Origin: Dehalococcoidia bacterium
GTDB taxonomy: Bacteria; Chloroflexota; Dehalococcoidia; Bin125
Assembly: GCA_022822855.1 (NCBI GenBank)
Contig: JAJDYG010000040.1
Location: forward strand, 88,556-152,555
Length of the DNA: 64,000 nucleotides
Reading direction: 5' to 3'
The notes below the pieces were generated by a model. It made no database searches. It saw nothing but the letters and a program-made list of their open reading frames with translations, and was not told the origin of the DNA. The translations under genes were made by a program, and so were the position numbers. Position 1 is the first letter of the stretch, and every line of letters starts with the position of its first letter. Of this stretch, positions 59,104 through 64,000 are shown one piece after another.

Positions 59104-59535
59104 CTACCCTTCTCCCATTTCGATCACCCGCTTCAGAGCCGCGATCTGCCCGCCGTCCGTCCGACGAATCGCAAAGCCGATCAACGGCCCCAGCAACCGG
59201 TACCGCAGCCCGCTGAAGTGGCACTCCGCCTCCAGACTGACCCGACTCCTGCCCTCCCCCGCTGGCTCAACCGAGTACCTGTAGTCGGCCGTCACGCCGC
59301 CCTGCTGCGAGCGCAGCGTGACCGACCGCCCCCGATCGCAATGAGTAATCAGGGAGGTGCGGTCCTGCCCGCGAGTGAAGAAGCGCACCTGGGCACCCTC
59401 CACGGTTTCGCCGTCGATCGACATCGACTCGATCCCATTCATCCAGCGAACCGCGCCAGGCCAATCCGTGAGCACCTCCCACACCCGATCCGAAGACGCG
59501 TTGATCGTCTCACTGACCGAGATTGTCTTTGCCAT
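59104..59535 (-). CDS. SRPBCC-superfamily protein (polyketide cyclase/dehydrase-like, START fold)
   Basis: 143 aa; INASSDRVWEVLTDWPGAVRWMNGIES... is typical of the SRPBCC N-terminus. Confidence 0.75.
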   Translation of the reverse strand: MAKTISVSETINASSDRVWEVLTDWPGAVRWMNGIESMSIDGETVEGAQVRFFTRGQDRTSLITHCDRGRSVTLRSQQGGVTADYRYSVEPAGEGRSRVSLEAECHFSGLRYRLLGPLIGFAIRRTDGGQIAALKRVIEMGEG

Positions 59536-59565
59536 CGAGATCCTCCCGAGTCCGAGTAGTGGTGA

Positions 59566-59931
59566 CTAATCGCCAACCAGCTCCAACAACTGCACGAAGT
59601 TCCCGTCAGGATCCAGCAGCGTCGCCACCTCGCCGCCCCATGACTCACGCTCCGGCGCGCGATGCACGCCGATCGTCGGATCCGCTGAGATCACCCGACG
59701 GAACTCGCCTGAAACGTCGTCGACAAACAGATTGATCTGCATCCGCGCGGGCTCCAGTGTCGCCCCCGAGATATCCGAGTGGTCGAGCAACCGAATGAAT
59801 CCGCCCGCAGCCTCAAAGACCGGATCACGGAACTTCGCCACCCGCTCGAGTCCAAGCGTCGCCCCGTAGAAGCGGGTCATCGCCTCGAGCTGGTCTGTCC
59901 CGACCATGATCGTCAACTCGCGGACCTGCAT
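59566..59931 (-). CDS. VOC-family (glyoxalase-like) protein
   Basis: The true start is the internal ATG (MQVRELTIMVGTDQLEAMTRFYGATLGLE...), 121 aa. The G/R-rich upstream extension is rejected. Confidence 0.7.
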   Translation of the reverse strand: MQVRELTIMVGTDQLEAMTRFYGATLGLERVAKFRDPVFEAAGGFIRLLDHSDISGATLEPARMQINLFVDDVSGEFRRVISADPTIGVHRAPERESWGGEVATLLDPDGNFVQLLELVGD

Positions 59932-59939
59932 CGTCAACC

Positions 59940-60764
59940 TCAGACGTCCAGTGACAGCCCGTCCGAGGCAACCACAATCGTGCCGTCGAACGCCCGCCGC
60001 GCCTCCTCGACCAGCTCCCAGTCTTGCTCCAGCGACATGATGTGGGTCAGGACCAGCGTGTTCACGCCGGCGTCGCGGGCGATCCGGCCTGCCGACTCCG
60101 CCGTCGAGTGTGTCCCCCCCACCCCGCGATACAGCCCCGCGCGCGCCGATTCCGATAGTCCCGCCGCCATCCGCGCCAGGCACGACTCTGTGTACGCCTC
60201 GTGCACCAGCACGTCGGCGCCGTCGGCCAGCGGGACCAGGCTCTCGGGCGCGTAGGTCGTGTCCCCCGTGTAGACCAGCGACCGTCCGCCCGCCTCAAAG
60301 CGCCGCGCCAGGCACTCGAGATTGGGAGCATGAGGCACCTCGACCGAACGCACGGCAATCCCGCCGATCTCCCGCTCATCCCCCGGACGGGTCAGCTCGA
60401 CCGAGACCCCGTCCAGCCAGCGCAGGATGAAGTCGTTCGTTGAGTTGACTCGAGCAAAACCCAGCGCTGCCTCGATGTACGTGTCCGTGTCGCGAGGCCC
60501 AAAGACCGTCACCGGCGCTCCCCTGCGAACGATCAGCCGGGTGAACAGCTCAACTACGCCCATCGCGTGGTCGAAGTGCAGATGTGAGAAGACCACGTCC
60601 GACACCGCATCCGCGTCCAGCCCCGAGTCCACCATCCGCTCCATGAATCCCGGTCCCGCATCTACCAGAATGCGCGCATCACCATGAGCCAGATGGATCG
60701 AAGCAGCCCCACGCCGCGGGTTCACCGACCCCCCTGCCCCCGACCCACAAAACGTAATGCGCAT
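59940..60764 (-). CDS. MBL-fold metallo-hydrolase
   Basis: SHLHFDHAMG (HxHxDH), with a downstream His and Asp (TGDTTY...VLTH). Confidence 0.8.
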   Translation of the reverse strand: MRITFCGSGAGGSVNPRRGAASIHLAHGDARILVDAGPGFMERMVDSGLDADAVSDVVFSHLHFDHAMGVVELFTRLIVRRGAPVTVFGPRDTDTYIEAALGFARVNSTNDFILRWLDGVSVELTRPGDEREIGGIAVRSVEVPHAPNLECLARRFEAGGRSLVYTGDTTYAPESLVPLADGADVLVHEAYTESCLARMAAGLSESARAGLYRGVGGTHSTAESAGRIARDAGVNTLVLTHIMSLEQDWELVEEARRAFDGTIVVASDGLSLDV

Positions 60765-60856
60765 AGCGCCGGACTCCTAGATAGAGAGGGTAGCGGTCAT
60801 CAACAGAACTGATGTACAATCCGGCCAGAGCGATAACATGCCGCAAAGGGAACATA

Positions 60857-62023
60857 ATGGTGCGATTCGCCGAGTTTTTCTCCGGCATTGGTCTGGTCCG
60901 GGAGGCCATCGAGCCACTGGGGTGGGAGTGCGTCTTCGCCAACGACATCGCGCCGGAAAAGGCCAGGATGTACACCGATCGGTTCGGATCGAACCACTTG
61001 CTGGTCGACGACATCAACCGCCTGACGCTGAGCGACCTCCCTGACGATCTCGATCTCCTGACGGCCTCCTTCCCCTGTATCGACCTTTCCTTGGCTGGCA
61101 ATCGTCGAGGCCTTGCCGGCGAACACTCCGGTACCGTTTGGCCCTTCCTCGATCTCACCGCCGACGTCGTGAGTAATCGAACCGCGCCGAAGGCCCTGCT
61201 CTTGGAAAACGTCACTGGATTTGTCACCTCTCACGGCGGTCGCGATCTCGAAGAGGTTTGCCAGCGGATCGGTGAGCTTGGTTACTTGATCGACCTGGTC
61301 GTTGTGGATGCGAAGTGGTTCACTCCCCAGAGTCGACCACGGCTGTTTGTGGTCGCGCTCCGTCAGGACTTGGTCCCATGTCCGCTCCCCCCCACCGACG
61401 ACGTGACCCGACTGCGAACCGCCGCCATTCGATCCTTTCAAGCCTCGCATCGTGGCATAGCCTTTTTCGAGTCCAGCCTGCCGGAACCGCCGCAAAGGGC
61501 GCCCAAACGCTTGGTTGACGTCTTGGAGCGCGTGCCAGCCAACGATGAATCTTGGTGGCCTGAGGATCGTGTCAATGCCTTGCGCGATGCGATGCACGAG
61601 CGGCATGCATTTCGGATTGGCGAATTGCTACTGGGTAAGCGGGATGGTGTGGCGACCATGTATCGGCGGGTTCGTCGAGGGCGGACCGTCGGAGAACTTC
61701 GGAGTGACACCATTGCCGGGTGTCTCCGAACCGCCAACGGTGGCAGCAGCGTTCAGTTCTTGGTGGACTGCAGAGGCGACCGACCGCGCATCCGACCACT
61801 GACGGGCCTCGAGTACGCTCGTCTTCAGGGTGCCGGCGACTTTCCCATCAATGTCGGCAGGCGCCAAGCCCAAAGCGGCTTCGGTGATGCTGTGTGCGTC
61901 CCAGCTGTCTCCTGGCTGGTCGATAATGCCTTCGGCTTCCTGCTCCAGGAATTGCCGCGGAGCGAGCCGGTGCAGACGCGATTCGCCGACGAACGACTCG
62001 ACCCCGTTGCAGCCGGGAGTTAA
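60857..62023 (+). CDS. DNA (cytosine-5)-methyltransferase
   Basis: FAEFFSGIGL (motif I), TASFPCIDLSLAG (motif IV, catalytic Pro-Cys), LLENV (motif VI), and GFGDAVCVP near the C-terminus. An alternative ATG at 60812 adds 15 aa. Confidence 0.85.
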   Translation: MVRFAEFFSGIGLVREAIEPLGWECVFANDIAPEKARMYTDRFGSNHLLVDDINRLTLSDLPDDLDLLTASFPCIDLSLAGNRRGLAGEHSGTVWPFLDLTADVVSNRTAPKALLLENVTGFVTSHGGRDLEEVCQRIGELGYLIDLVVVDAKWFTPQSRPRLFVVALRQDLVPCPLPPTDDVTRLRTAAIRSFQASHRGIAFFESSLPEPPQRAPKRLVDVLERVPANDESWWPEDRVNALRDAMHERHAFRIGELLLGKRDGVATMYRRVRRGRTVGELRSDTIAGCLRTANGGSSVQFLVDCRGDRPRIRPLTGLEYARLQGAGDFPINVGRRQAQSGFGDAVCVPAVSWLVDNAFGFLLQELPRSEPVQTRFADERLDPVAAGS

Positions 62024-62026
62024 CTC

Positions 62027-62488
62027 GTGGCCGTCCGACGAGATCCGCTCACTCCAGAAGCGCGATCCGAAACCATGCGCCGCATCCGGCGCAAGGACAC
62101 CAAGCCCGAACTCGCTTTGCGCAAGGAACTCTATCGTCGCGGCCTTCGCTACCGCGTCGACTACCCCTGTGCCCCTGGACGCCCCGACATCGCCATGGTC
62201 GGACGCAAGCTCGCCGTCTTCGTTGATGGCGAGTTCTGGCACGGCAAGAAGCACACCGCCGAACGCTACGCCGAGATGACCGAATACTGGCGCAACAAGA
62301 TTGAGCGGAACATGGACAGAGATCGCCGCGTCAATACTGAGCTGCGCGACCTCGGTTGGACCACGATCCGAGTGACAGATCGGGCTGTTCTCGGCGATGT
62401 GAAGGTCATCGCAGACTTCGTAGCAGACGCCGCCCAAGGCCGATTCCAGATCTATCCACCGCCCGGCGTCGAGATCATGAGGTCCTGA
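62027..62488 (+). CDS. vsr: Very-short-patch-repair (Vsr) T:G mismatch endonuclease
   Basis: SETMRRIRRKDTKPELALRKELYRRGLRYRVDYP...GRPDIAMVGRKLAVFVDGEFWHGK is the canonical Vsr core. It starts 4 nt after the methyltransferase stop. Confidence 0.85.
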   Translation: MAVRRDPLTPEARSETMRRIRRKDTKPELALRKELYRRGLRYRVDYPCAPGRPDIAMVGRKLAVFVDGEFWHGKKHTAERYAEMTEYWRNKIERNMDRDRRVNTELRDLGWTTIRVTDRAVLGDVKVIADFVADAAQGRFQIYPPPGVEIMRS

Positions 62489-62490
62489 CC

Positions 62491-63168
62491 ATGGCGAAAC
62501 GCCGCGGACCGCCCGACGAAGTTGCCGCGATCTTGCGCGAATTGATCAAGGCCTTGGATGTCATTGATCCTGCAAACGGAAGGAAGGTAGGGGACGCCAA
62601 GTACGGGGTGTACGCATTCTTCGATTACGACGATGAACCCATCTATGTCGGCCAGACGACAGAGCAACTGCGCGTCAGAATTCGTCGTCACTTGACCAAC
62701 CAACGTACCGATGCCGTCGCAATGAACGTCCTCGATCCGTTCGAGGTAGCCGACATCGAGATGTGGCCGTTTTGGGATTTGGATGACGCTTGGCAGCAGG
62801 CAGACAACAGAGAGGAAAAGGCCGAGGTCCGGGAACGTGCCAAGCAGCGGCTGAACTCCGCGGAGTATTCGCTGTTTCAGAATGTCTTGGCAGCCTCGGA
62901 ATTCCGCGCTGTATTGAATGAAAAGCCGCCCGATGAGGCTCAAACGATGGATCTGCCTTCGTCTTTCCGTTGTCGCATCGTTCCCACGGACATCTACCGC
63001 CGGCGTGTGCATCCGGATATTCGAATCGCCCAACGAGCGGCGACTATCGCGCGATTGGCAGACGTCATCAGCCGCCGTCAAGTGAAGCCCGGGCTCCGCG
63101 CCACCTTGGTGGTGCAAGCCAAACGCCTCTTGCACTTGGCCGAATCCCGTTTGGACGAGCTGGACTAG
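62491..63168 (+). CDS. GIY-YIG nuclease-domain protein (candidate restriction endonuclease of an Eco29kI-like m5C R-M system)
   Basis: Start at the internal ATG 62491, 3 nt after the vsr stop. YGVYAFFDYDDEPIYVGQTTEQLRVRIRRHLT is the GIY-x10-YVG...R...RH catalytic motif, and NV...E follows downstream. 225 aa. Confidence 0.7.
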   Translation: MAKRRGPPDEVAAILRELIKALDVIDPANGRKVGDAKYGVYAFFDYDDEPIYVGQTTEQLRVRIRRHLTNQRTDAVAMNVLDPFEVADIEMWPFWDLDDAWQQADNREEKAEVRERAKQRLNSAEYSLFQNVLAASEFRAVLNEKPPDEAQTMDLPSSFRCRIVPTDIYRRRVHPDIRIAQRAATIARLADVISRRQVKPGLRATLVVQAKRLLHLAESRLDELD

Positions 63169-63600
63169 CCGCACCCTGCCTCGTCGTTTCCGCCATCTCA
63201 GGCCCGCTGGCGCCAACCCTCCGTCAACCACTTGACCATCCTCCTTCCTAACGGAACGCCCGTGCTGATACCCTTGCCCCACATCGCCGCTCAGACCCAC
63301 CGGAGGCCACGACCATGACCGATTCAACTGCCCGAACCACAGCCGTACAGCTCCGTTCAAGCCGGCTCTTGCCCGCACAACACCAATCAAAGTCCGAACA
63401 AATCCGAACAGGAAGTCCCGAAGAAACCTGAAAAAAGCTGAAAGAACCTGAAACTCCCGACGCACGATCCCCTGTAAATCACTGGAGATCAGCACAATTC
63501 GGCCCTCAGAAAAAAAGTTTGTCGAAAACCTGAAATCCGCAGATCGCATTTGTGCCCGAACATCCGCCAGGAGGCCCAACACGCCCTAGACTCCCAAACC

Positions 63601-64000
63601 ATGCCGCCCCTCACCGGACTCCGAGTCCTCGACCATGGCCACGTCTGGGCCGGCCCGCTGCTCGGCATGTTCCTGGCCGATCTCGGCGCGGAGGTGATCA
63701 AGGTCGGCGCGCCCCATCGGCTGTCCGGTGTATCGATCGGCGGCCAGCGCGCCCCCGTCGGCTCGATCGGCGGCGACCGAGGCTCCACGTCCGTCGACGA
63801 CCCGCGCGCCTTTCACGGTCTCGATCGCGGTAAGCGCTCGATCGCCATCAACCTCAGCGACCCGCGCGGGCGGGACCTCTACCTGCGCTTGATCGAACAG
63901 TCGGACGTCGTCCTCGAGAATTTTTCCCCGCGTGTGATGCCGTCGCTGGGACTCTCGTACGACGTCCTCTCCGAGGCCAACCCGAGGATCATCATGGTCG
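63601..64000 (+). CDS. CoA-transferase family III (CaiB/BaiF-like), N-terminal fragment; continues beyond the window
   Basis: MPPLTGLRVLDHGHVWAGPLLGMFLADLGAEVIKV is the family-III CoA-transferase N-terminal motif. No stop before position 64000. Confidence 0.7.
   Translation, partial: MPPLTGLRVLDHGHVWAGPLLGMFLADLGAEVIKVGAPHRLSGVSIGGQRAPVGSIGGDRGSTSVDDPRAFHGLDRGKRSIAINLSDPRGRDLYLRLIEQSDVVLENFSPRVMPSLGLSYDVLSEANPRIIMV

What the first reader, a model, noticed from the sequence alone, without database searches (positions are those of the whole stretch)
60857..63168. m5C-methyltransferase, Vsr and GIY-YIG nuclease in a tight operon: candidate Eco29kI-like restriction-modification module with a built-in mismatch repair gene
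The three genes are separated by 3-4 nt. The methyltransferase has the full m5C motif set. Vsr is the dedicated repair enzyme for T:G lesions created by 5-methylcytosine deamination. The third gene has a textbook GIY-YIG catalytic motif (GVYAFFDYDDEPIYVGQT...R..RRH) in a 225-aa protein, similar in size to GIY-YIG type II restriction enzymes such as Eco29kI and Cfr42I. Downstream lies a 250-nt AT-rich tract with ACCTGAAA repeats, atypical for this genome, which is suggestive of an acquired island boundary.
Basis: partly seen in the sequence, partly recalled or inferred. Interest (0 to 1): 0.6.

Follow-up and report, generated by a model that had tools for sequence, protein, structure and literature searches.

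The report
Methylase, Vsr and GIY-YIG nuclease module
Three tightly packed genes (a cytosine-5 DNA methylase, a Vsr mismatch nickase and a 225-residue GIY-YIG nuclease) most likely form a restriction-modification cassette in a variable defence slot, and its nuclease belongs to a widespread, uncharacterised family unrelated in sequence to Eco29kI.

Summary
Three + strand ORFs (60857-62023, 62027-62488, 62491-63168) are separated by 3 and 2 nt. They encode an m5C methyltransferase, a Vsr homologue and a GIY-YIG protein, and each passes its curated family cut-off.

The GIY-YIG protein belongs to a large, highly conserved family: 6,741 homologues, 50-65% identical across many phyla and also found on plasmids. 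In 78 of 80 species-level loci an m5C methylase gene sits immediately upstream on the same strand. Vsr is optional and changes position. All partner methylases share a homologous target-recognition domain. In close relatives the same chromosomal slot holds other cargo:
- the same methylase and Vsr with an unrelated ~175-aa ORF carrying a D..ExK motif;
- a DUF433 gene;
- a GmrSD-type enzyme.

This pattern fits a type II restriction-modification module with an accessory Vsr.

It is not Eco29kI-like by family. Sequence, profile and fold searches find no link to Eco29kI or Hpy188I, and the catalytic core is closest to the UvrC N-terminal domain. The downstream low-GC tract is a conserved non-coding region upstream of the next gene. 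It lies inside the variable segment but is not a foreign-DNA signature. Target site and cleavage activity remain unknown. Interest is moderate.

The parts
60857..62023 (+). Cytosine-5 DNA methyltransferase (M), 388 aa. The target-recognition domain is roughly residues 173-305.
   Evidence: Pfam DNA_methylase 1.1e-41, TIGR00675 1.3e-42, PADLOC MTase_II PDLC03243 1.1e-93. Residues 2-172 align to M.HhaI at 1e-19; the target-recognition domain does not align. All catalytic motifs are visible in the translation.
62027..62488 (+). Vsr-type very-short-patch mismatch endonuclease, 153 aa (GTG start). An alternative ATG start at 62075 would give 137 aa, which is how some relatives are called.
   Evidence: TIGR00632 1.4e-35, above its cut-off; Pfam Vsr 1e-25. 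It aligns to E. coli Vsr 1cw0 at 6e-18 with the D51 and H69 equivalents kept. The positions aligned to the cysteines in E. coli's HGCFWHHHHC are not Cys.
62491..63168 (+). GIY-YIG nuclease (G), 225 aa, the predicted restriction endonuclease. It has an N-terminal helix, a GIY-YIG core (about residues 37-145) and a C-terminal three-helix region (166-224).
   Evidence: Pfam GIY-YIG 1.2e-6, above its cut-off. The family has 6,741 homologues. Invariant residues include Y41, Y52, R63, H67, E85, E125 and N143. The AlphaFold2 model has pLDDT 89 and pTM 0.86. A methylase is linked in 78 of 80 loci.
60765..60856 (.). 92-nt spacer between the divergent MBL-fold gene and M. It is presumed to hold the module's promoter. 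The left edge of the variable segment (60777/60778) lies inside it.
   Evidence: Homology with L094 ends at 60777. No sigma-70 consensus site was found, so the promoter is inferred only.
60778..63586 (.). Variable segment of about 2.8 kb relative to the closely related genome L094. It holds the three genes plus the downstream non-coding tract.
   Evidence: blastn homology with L094 runs 59120-60777 and 63587-63998 only. L094 carries a DUF433 gene in this slot, and L096 carries a GmrSD_N gene plus a 181-aa ORF.

Best explanation
This is a type II restriction-modification cassette with an accessory repair gene.

Proposed mechanism:
- M methylates C5 of a cytosine in a short, still unknown target site on host DNA.
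- G is a GIY-YIG endonuclease. Its catalytic residues are inferred as Y41, Y52, R63, H67, E125 and N143. Its C-terminal helices are inferred to mediate dimerisation or DNA contact. It cuts the same site when the site is unmethylated, for example on incoming phage or plasmid DNA.
- Vsr nicks 5' of the T in the T:G mismatches that arise when 5-methylcytosine deaminates, so the methylated sites are restored rather than mutated.
- The three genes are probably co-transcribed from the 92-nt spacer upstream of M, with M translated first.

What is shown: gene identities, conserved linkage, the shared type of target-recognition domain, and location in a variable slot.

What is inferred: cleavage, methylation sensitivity, oligomeric state and the target site.
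For: 1. Across 80 species-level loci from at least eight phyla, an m5C methylase gene lies immediately upstream of G on the same strand in 78. The two exceptions are a truncated contig and an IS-disrupted copy in a genome that also has a complete copy.
2. Vsr is dispensable and mobile within the module: M-G-V 40 loci, V-M-G 15, M-G-V(reverse) 3, M-V-G 1, and M-G with no Vsr in 11 loci with full flanks.
3. On plasmids and one phage-like contig the pair is kept, but order and orientation vary: divergent, ParA in between, or an extra ORF in between. This argues for functional linkage and against site-specific insertion.
4. The window methylase's target-recognition domain alone detects all 90 partner methylases (E from 1e-73 to 3e-5) and the seven plasmid or phage-like ones. 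It detects none of the m5C methylases in the PDB. This is compatible with one shared specificity.
5. In two relatives with the same M (78-81% identity) and Vsr at the same site, the G position is filled by an unrelated ~175-aa ORF. That ORF has a conserved DL..YEVKS (D..ExK-like) motif and overlaps the Vsr stop. Such non-orthologous replacement is typical of restriction genes.
6. The slot between the MBL-fold gene and the CoA-transferase gene is a variable site that carries DUF433 or a GmrSD_N enzyme in relatives.
7. G is intact and retains every family-invariant residue.
Against: - No similarity to any characterised restriction enzyme was found.
- No PADLOC restriction-enzyme model was hit.
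- The catalytic core is closest to the UvrC N-terminal domain (weak UvrC and Cho-type hits).
- G is more conserved than its partners: about 57-64% identity between phyla, against about 35-45% for M and 30-40% for Vsr. This is the reverse of what is usual for restriction-modification pairs.
- G identity is decoupled from M and Vsr identity within the window's own clade: 89%, 61% and 56% at similar M and Vsr divergence.
- Palindrome-avoidance analysis gave no clear target site.
- One plasmid has an Mrr_cat nuclease gene next to the same M-G pair.
Confidence: 0.68

Rival explanations
1. G is a repair nuclease tied to cytosine methylation, and M plus Vsr is an orphan Dcm-Vsr-like pair. G could make the 3' incision, as the UvrC N-terminal domain does, next to the 5' nick made by Vsr at a T:G mismatch. 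Alternatively it could be a context-independent T:G or U:G endonuclease.
For: - The closest fold and weak sequence matches are to the UvrC N-terminal domain and to Cho-type DEDD-GIY-YIG proteins.
- G is unusually conserved, and more so than M or Vsr.
- G pairs with several methylase subfamilies.
- In the window it follows Vsr directly, with a 2-nt gap.
Against: - Eleven loci with full flanks have M-G and no Vsr nearby. The M-to-G link is the invariant one, not the Vsr-G link.
- No Vsr-G fusions were found among the longer family members scanned.
- In close relatives the G slot is filled by an unrelated ORF with a PD..ExK-like motif.
- The module behaves as mobile cargo, on plasmids and in a variable defence slot.
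Confidence: 0.14
2. G is a free-standing, homing-type GIY-YIG endonuclease that targets and inserts next to this clade of methylase genes. It would be a selfish passenger with no role in the methylase's function.
For: - Its size and layout resemble I-TevI: an N-terminal GIY-YIG domain, a linker and a C-terminal helical region.
- G alleles are exchanged independently of M and Vsr.
- Phage GIY-YIG endonucleases are the best BFVD fold matches.
Against: - No NUMOD or other homing-endonuclease DNA-binding module was found.
- The position relative to M is not fixed. Divergent orientation, an intervening ParA, Vsr or unknown ORF all occur, which does not fit a fixed homing site.
- Linkage to M is retained across many phyla and on plasmids.
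Confidence: 0.08
3. G is a methyl-directed strand-discrimination nickase. It would be a functional analogue of MutH that uses hemimethylated m5C sites, or a component of some other methylation-linked system that has not been described.
For: - Only indirect evidence: strict linkage to a methylase.
- High conservation that is atypical of restriction enzymes.
- Association with a mismatch-repair nickase.
Against: - No linkage to mutS or mutL was seen in any surveyed locus.
- The patchy distribution, plasmid carriage and slot replacement point to defence cargo rather than housekeeping repair.
Confidence: 0.04

Closest known systems
Eco29kI / Cfr42I / NgoMIII-type GIY-YIG type II restriction enzymes (CCGCGG) with their m5C methylases
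   Same: - A small (about 210-225 aa) single-chain GIY-YIG nuclease encoded next to a cytosine methylase.
- The expected mode of action is cleavage of the unmethylated site.
   Different: - No detectable sequence or profile similarity.
- The fold match is poor: rank 21, probability 0.13, TM about 0.2.
- The extensions differ: an N-terminal helix plus a C-terminal three-helix region, rather than Eco29kI's insertions.
- The target site is unknown. CCGCGG is only mildly depleted, with O/E 0.71-0.79, near the palindrome baseline of about 0.8.
Hpy188I (TCNGA), a GIY-YIG type II restriction enzyme
   Same: A GIY-YIG catalytic core within a restriction-modification setting.
   Different: - No sequence match was found.
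- The fold search ranks it 47th, with probability 0.08.
- From general knowledge, not tested here: Hpy188I pairs with an adenine methylase and has an atypical active site.
Dcm-Vsr of E. coli, and m5C restriction-modification systems that carry a vsr gene (for example EcoRII-Dcm-Vsr; the examples are from general knowledge)
   Same: An m5C methylase is tightly coupled to a Vsr nickase that repairs the T:G mismatches produced by 5-methylcytosine deamination.
   Different: - Here Vsr sits between M and the nuclease, an order seen in only 1 of 80 species loci. In most relatives it is downstream, upstream or absent.
- The positions aligned to the cysteines in E. coli Vsr's HGCFWHHHHC segment are not Cys here.
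UvrC N-terminal GIY-YIG domain / Cho
   Same: - It is the best structural match to the catalytic core: 1yd6, probability 0.9-0.97 over 62-104 columns.
- There are weak NCBIfam hits over residues 37-78.
   Different: - G has none of UvrC's other domains; Pfam finds no other domain in it.
- G carries a family-specific C-terminal helical region.
- G is linked to a methylase, and no uvrA or uvrB gene appears in the surveyed loci.

Membership tests
GIY-YIG nuclease superfamily | Match to the GIY-YIG domain model above the curated threshold, with the GIY and YIG tyrosines and the Arg of helix 1 | tested here: met
   PF01541 scores 29.1 bits against a cut-off of 22.6, and all 24 aligned family members match. 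Y41, Y52, R63 and H67 are invariant.
GIY-YIG nuclease superfamily | Metal-binding Glu and conserved Asn in the C-terminal half of the core | tested here: inconclusive
   E85, E125 and N143 are invariant. The Pfam alignment stops at residue 110 and no coordinates could be superposed, so assigning E125 and N143 to these roles is by spacing analogy with I-TevI and UvrC only.
Eco29kI/Cfr42I restriction endonuclease family | Detectable sequence homology to Eco29kI | tested here: not met
   phmmer and a 24-sequence profile against all PDB chains, which include Eco29kI (3mx4, 3nic), gave no hit at E<=10. Pfam scans at E<=1 hit only the generic GIY-YIG model.
Eco29kI/Cfr42I restriction endonuclease family | Overall fold similarity beyond the shared catalytic core | tested here: not met
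   Foldseek places 3mx4 at rank 21, with E 1.3, probability 0.13 and TM 0.21.
Eco29kI/Cfr42I restriction endonuclease family | CCGCGG specificity | not testable with these tools
   The only proxy was site avoidance. CCGCGG O/E is 0.71 in the window and 0.79 pooled, close to the palindrome median of about 0.8.
Hpy188I restriction endonuclease family | Sequence or fold homology to Hpy188I | tested here: not met
   No PDB sequence hit. Foldseek ranks 3oqg 47th, with probability 0.08.
Type II restriction-modification system | Methyltransferase with a complete catalytic motif set | tested here: met
   Motifs I, IV, VI, VIII, IX and X are visible in the translation. TIGR00675 and PF00145 both score above their cut-offs.
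Type II restriction-modification system | Nuclease gene persistently linked to the methylase gene across genomes | tested here: met
   78 of 80 species loci, plus 7 of 7 plasmid or phage-like loci.
Type II restriction-modification system | Nuclease and methylase share one target sequence, and methylation blocks cleavage | not testable with these tools
   Indirect evidence only: all partner methylases have a homologous target-recognition domain. Biochemistry is needed.
Type II restriction-modification system | Match of the nuclease to a known restriction-enzyme model | tested here: not met
   PADLOC gave no restriction-enzyme hit. The best hits were PDC-S14 at 0.0067 and UzuA at 0.042.
Vsr (very-short-patch repair endonuclease) | Match above the curated threshold and conservation of the catalytic Asp and His | tested here: met
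   TIGR00632 scores 122.2 bits against a cut-off of 97.85. The alignment to 1cw0 keeps the RPD (D51) and FWH (H69) equivalents.
Vsr (very-short-patch repair endonuclease) | Structural zinc site (Cys/His ligands of E. coli Vsr; ligand identities recalled from the literature) | tested here: not met
   E. coli HGCFWHHHHC aligns to DGEFWHGKK-H, so the aligned positions of both cysteines in that segment are not Cys.
UvrC / Cho excinuclease | GIY-YIG domain combined with UvrB-binding, EndoV-like or HhH domains (UvrC), or with a Cho C-terminal domain or exonuclease fusion | tested here: not met
   G is 225 aa and Pfam finds no other domain in it. NCBIfam UvrC and DEDD-GIY-YIG hits cover only residues 37-78 and score far below their cut-offs.
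GIY-YIG homing endonucleases (I-TevI / Seg type) | Modular DNA-binding domains (NUMOD, HTH, Zn finger) and a fixed insertion site | tested here: not met
   No NUMOD or related domain was found. TIGR01453 scores only 14 bits against a cut-off of 56. Position and orientation relative to M vary.

The most novel reading that the evidence does not exclude
G is not a classical restriction enzyme. It would instead be a methylation-coupled nuclease of a different kind. One option is a UvrC-like 3'-incision partner for Vsr, giving dual-incision very-short-patch repair. Another is an m5C-directed, MutH-like strand-discrimination nickase. Either would explain why G is more conserved than its methylase partner across phyla and why its core looks like UvrC.
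Probability: 0.12. Interest if true: 0.75.

Novelty: new variant of a known kind. Interest (0 to 1): 0.42.

Why it matters
Only two lineages of GIY-YIG restriction enzymes have been characterised, Eco29kI/Cfr42I and Hpy188I (PMC4081073). If G is the restriction enzyme, this would be a third, independent lineage.

The family is large. It has about 6,700 sequences in Chloroflexota, Acidobacteriota, Verrucomicrobiota, Planctomycetota, Actinomycetota and Proteobacteria, including plasmids. PADLOC's restriction-enzyme models do not detect it, so its methylases may be scored as orphans in defence surveys that rely on such models.

The family has two unusual properties that make it a useful case for how restriction-modification modules are assembled:
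- The nuclease is more conserved than the methylase.
- The nuclease alleles, or an unrelated ~175-aa ORF, are swapped behind a stable methylase-Vsr pair.

Cultured hosts carrying family members exist (Methylocystis rosea, Sphingomonas naphthae, Mesorhizobium mediterraneum, and Arthrobacter and Polaromonas plasmids), so the prediction can be tested directly.

Tried and rejected
- **Sequence link to known GIY-YIG restriction enzymes.** phmmer and a family profile against all PDB sequences gave only spurious eL24 matches.
- **Inferring the target site from palindrome avoidance.**
  - I tested the window, 892 kb of pooled loci, and subsets by methylase subfamily.
  - No site stands out consistently.
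  - CAGCTG (0.33) and AAGCTT (0.24) are low in the window's clade, but they are also low in loci without G.
- **Inferring specificity from the target-recognition domain.** It has no match to any methylase in the PDB.
- **Vsr-G or M-G fusions as Rosetta-stone evidence.** The longer family members have N-terminal extensions with no Pfam domain, some resembling a helix-turn-helix and some a coiled coil. None is Vsr or a methylase.
- **A small controller (C) protein.**
  - The small ORFs next to M on plasmids gave no convincing HTH hit. One gave a weak ribbon-helix-helix hit at 0.0049.
  - There is no such ORF in the window.
- **Promoter and terminator scan.** Nothing exceeded the shuffled expectation.
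- **Rfam scan of the downstream tract.** Nothing was found.
- **Literature.** No paper describes this family. The pW5NP1 plasmid paper does not mention the methylase or the nuclease.
- **Metagenome scan with the MBL-fold neighbour.** It returned only two loci. The empty-site comparison came instead from protein look-ups.
- **Druantia.** The strong PADLOC DruM2 hit for M reflects methylase similarity only. No other Druantia-associated Pfam family is called near any surveyed copy.
Full report
**1. The observation**

The region holds three + strand ORFs.
- M runs from 60857 to 62023 (388 aa).
- Vsr runs from a GTG at 62027 to 62488 (153 aa).
- G runs from 62491 to 63168 (225 aa).
- The spacers are 3 nt and 2 nt.

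All three pass their curated family thresholds.
- M matches Pfam DNA_methylase (1.1e-41) and TIGR00675 (1.3e-42).
- Vsr matches TIGR00632 (1.4e-35).
- G matches Pfam GIY-YIG (1.2e-6, 29.1 bits against a cut-off of 22.6).

M carries motifs I, IV, VI, VIII, IX and X. G carries GVYAFFDYDDEPIYVGQT followed by RVRIRRH.

**2. What the GIY-YIG protein is**

G belongs to a large and unusually uniform family. There are 6,741 homologues, and the best 120 are all at least 58% identical and 151-246 aa long, nearly all 208-246. A profile search of 1.84 billion cluster representatives found only 608 clusters, so the family is compact.

An alignment of 24 diverse members has about 70 invariant columns. These include Y41, Y52, R63, H67, E85, E125, N143 and the stretch HLTNQRTDAVAMNVLDPFEV.

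AlphaFold2 gives a confident model, with pLDDT 89 and pTM 0.86. It shows:
- an N-terminal helix;
- a GIY-YIG core;
- an extended linker;
- three C-terminal helices (166-224).

The only low-confidence internal segment, residues 72-80, coincides with the most conserved stretch. That would fit a loop that orders on binding a substrate, which is inference.

**3. Relation to known nucleases**

I found no link to a characterised restriction enzyme.
- A single-sequence search and a profile search against every PDB chain, Eco29kI and Hpy188I included, returned no GIY-YIG protein at E<=10.
- Pfam hits only the generic GIY-YIG model for all 24 aligned members.
- PADLOC has no restriction-enzyme model that matches.
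- Foldseek against the PDB puts the UvrC N-terminal domain first (probability 0.9-0.97 over the core). Eco29kI is at rank 21 (probability 0.13) and Hpy188I at rank 47.
- BFVD gives only generic phage GIY-YIG endonucleases.

So 'Eco29kI-like' fails as a family assignment. Dunin-Horkawicz et al. (PMC1564403) argue that GIY-YIG restriction enzymes derive from the UvrC or homing-endonuclease branch. A UvrC-like core therefore does not by itself indicate a repair function.

**4. Genomic context across genomes**

A scan of one genome per species returned 584 relatives, and I examined the best 80. They come from Chloroflexota, Acidobacteriota, Verrucomicrobiota, Planctomycetota, Myxococcota, Actinomycetota, Elusimicrobiota, Latescibacterota and Armatimonadota.

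tblastn with the window's M, Vsr and G shows an m5C methylase gene immediately upstream of G, on the same strand, in 78 of 80 loci. The two exceptions do not weaken this.
- One contig has only 345 nt of upstream flank.
- One copy has its 5' end replaced by an IS (rve-type integrase), in a MAG that also carries a complete V-M-G copy.

Vsr is variable:

| Arrangement | Loci |
|---|---|
| M-G-V | 40 |
| V-M-G | 15 |
| M-G-V (reverse strand) | 3 |
| M-V-G (the window's order) | 1 |
| M-G, no Vsr, full flanks | 11 |
| M-G, no Vsr, flanks too short to judge | 8 |

The core is therefore the methylase plus the nuclease, and Vsr is an accessory.

Family members (42-52% identical) also sit on plasmids of cultured bacteria and on one phage-like contig. 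The methylase is always nearby, but the order and orientation vary.
- Sphingomonas naphthae: M and G are divergent, with a small ORF next to M.
- Polaromonas pW5NP1: M and G are divergent, with a small ORF and ParA between them.
- Methylocystis rosea: a 285-aa ORF lies between M and G, and a PLD-like gene follows.
- Curtobacterium: an Mrr_cat gene precedes M-G.
- Mesorhizobium: a reverse-strand Vsr precedes M-G.
- Arthrobacter pA40H2: M-G in tandem.

This flexibility argues for selection on linkage. It argues against a homing endonuclease with a fixed insertion site.

**5. The methylases**

Partner methylases fall into at least six subfamilies and are only 35-45% identical to the window's M.

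Their target-recognition domains are nevertheless homologous. The window's domain alone (residues 173-305) detects all 90 partner methylases, with E from 1e-73 to 3e-5, and the seven plasmid or phage-like ones. It matches none of the m5C methylases in the PDB, such as M.HhaI or M.HaeIII.

This is compatible with one shared specificity, as expected for a family of isoschizomeric systems. It does not prove it.

**6. The local slot**

In the window the module lies between a divergent MBL-fold gene (59940-60764, minus strand) and a CoA-transferase gene (from 63602).
- Relatives L001-L004 and L097 have M-Vsr-G at the same place.
- L094, whose MBL-fold protein is 92% identical to the window's, has a DUF433 gene there instead. 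Nucleotide homology breaks at 60777 and resumes at 63587.
- L096 has a GmrSD_N gene plus a 181-aa ORF.

The site is therefore a variable slot that repeatedly carries defence-type cargo.

Two relatives are the most telling, L093 and L098.
- Both keep M (78-81% identity) and Vsr.
- In both, G is replaced by an unrelated ~175-aa ORF that overlaps the Vsr stop.
- The two copies of that ORF are 50% identical to each other.
- They share a DL..YEVKS motif, which resembles a PD..ExK motif.
- The L093 copy has no Pfam, PADLOC or PDB match.

Non-orthologous replacement at the nuclease position is what one expects of a restriction gene.

**7. Oddities that keep the verdict short of certain**

- G is more conserved than its partners. 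For example, L016 shows G 63%, M 43% and Vsr 36% identity to the window.
- Within the window's own clade, G identity is decoupled from M and Vsr identity:

| Compared with window | G | M | Vsr |
|---|---|---|---|
| L001 | 89% | 77% | 84% |
| L010 | 61% | 79% | 84% |
| L097 | 56% | 84% | not computed |

  G alleles therefore move independently behind a stable M-Vsr pair.
- Palindrome-avoidance analysis gave no convincing target. CAGCTG and AAGCTT are low in the window's clade (O/E 0.33 and 0.24), but they are also low in related loci without G, and most palindromes sit near 0.8.

These points leave room for three rivals: a methylation-coupled repair or nicking role (about 0.14), a homing-type selfish nuclease (about 0.08) and a MutH-like role (about 0.04).

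**8. The downstream tract**

The 433-nt spacer (63169-63601) contains three ACCTGAAA copies and several CCGAACA repeats. It has no Rfam match and no repeat elsewhere in the window.

The tract, wholly or in part, is conserved upstream of the CoA-transferase gene in L093, L097 and L098, whichever third gene is present. It is cleanly deleted in L001 and L003, where G abuts the CoA-transferase gene; gene spacing indicates the same in L002 and L004. It is absent from L094.

It is therefore a lineage-conserved non-coding element of unknown role. It lies inside the variable segment, but it is not a signature of foreign DNA.

**9. Verdict**

The best-supported reading (about 0.68) is a type II restriction-modification cassette. 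Its endonuclease belongs to a widespread, uncharacterised GIY-YIG lineage distinct from Eco29kI and Hpy188I. It carries an accessory Vsr and sits in a variable defence slot.

The architecture is a known kind. The nuclease family appears not to be characterised. The target site, cleavage activity and methylation sensitivity remain to be shown experimentally.

Noticed in passing
window 63169-63601: A 433-nt non-coding tract with CCGAACA and AACCTGAAA repeats. GC is 46% over 63380-63560. The tract, wholly or in part, is conserved upstream of the CoA-transferase gene in L093, L097 and L098, deleted in L001 and L003, and absent in L094. It has no Rfam match, and its function is unknown (regulatory region or small RNA?).
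   Followed up: partly
window 63315-63431: A possible 38-codon ORF inside the tract that ends at the first ACCTGA. An ATG at the equivalent place opens 41- and 48-codon ORFs in L093 and L097, but not in L098. The peptides are poorly conserved, so it is probably not a protein gene.
   Followed up: partly
L093:431-967 (-) and L098:5648-6175 (+): An unrelated ~175-aa ORF replaces the GIY-YIG gene behind the same methylase and Vsr. The two copies are 50% identical and share a DL..YEVKS motif (PD..ExK-like). The L093 copy has no Pfam, PADLOC or PDB match; Pfam is also blank for L098. This is a candidate for an uncharacterised restriction enzyme.
   Followed up: partly
L094:4167-4889 and L096:2586-4734: The slot between the MBL-fold gene and the CoA-transferase gene holds a DUF433 protein in one relative. 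In another it holds a GmrSD_N (type IV restriction-like) gene plus a 181-aa ORF. The site is a recurrent cargo site.
   Followed up: partly
window 59940-60764 (-): The conserved MBL-fold neighbour matches the Pfam Anti-Pycsar_Apyc1 family as well as Lactamase_B in the precomputed annotations. It is syntenic and vertically conserved in relatives, so it is probably a housekeeping hydrolase and not an anti-defence gene.
   Followed up: no
window 62027-62488: E. coli Vsr's HGCFWHHHHC segment aligns to DGEFWHGKK-H here, so the aligned positions of both cysteines in that segment are not Cys. The catalytic Asp and His equivalents are kept. This looks like a zinc-less Vsr variant.
   Followed up: partly
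window 62704-62730 (G residues 72-80): The most conserved stretch of the GIY-YIG family (QRTDAVAMN) is the only internal segment that AlphaFold2 models with pLDDT below 50. It may be a substrate-ordered DNA-contact loop.
   Followed up: no
L001, L010, L097 compared with window 60857-63168: The nuclease is decoupled from its partners. G is 89%, 61% and 56% identical to the window's G, while M stays at 77-84% (Vsr 84% in L001 and L010). This suggests repeated allele exchange at the third position of the module.
   Followed up: partly
L081:5168-6642: A second family copy in an Anaerolineae MAG has lost its methylase and its own 5' end to an IS (rve-type integrase). It now reads through from the transposase frame. 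The same MAG keeps an intact V-M-G copy (L080).
   Followed up: partly
P0265, P0271, P0278, P0343, P0346; P0303, P0312: Distant family members of 320-414 aa carry N-terminal extensions with no Pfam match. One group has a helix-turn-helix-like segment followed by a low-complexity linker. Another group has a coiled-coil-like region.
   Followed up: partly
L090:5668-6005 (Polaromonas plasmid pW5NP1): A degraded Vsr gene, split across two reading frames, lies just downstream of the GIY-YIG gene on this 9.6-kb plasmid. The record does not annotate it.
   Followed up: no
L102:1982-2725 (Curtobacterium plasmid): An Mrr_cat-type 'restriction endonuclease' gene sits directly upstream of the methylase-GIY-YIG pair. 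This gives two nuclease candidates around one methylase.
   Followed up: partly
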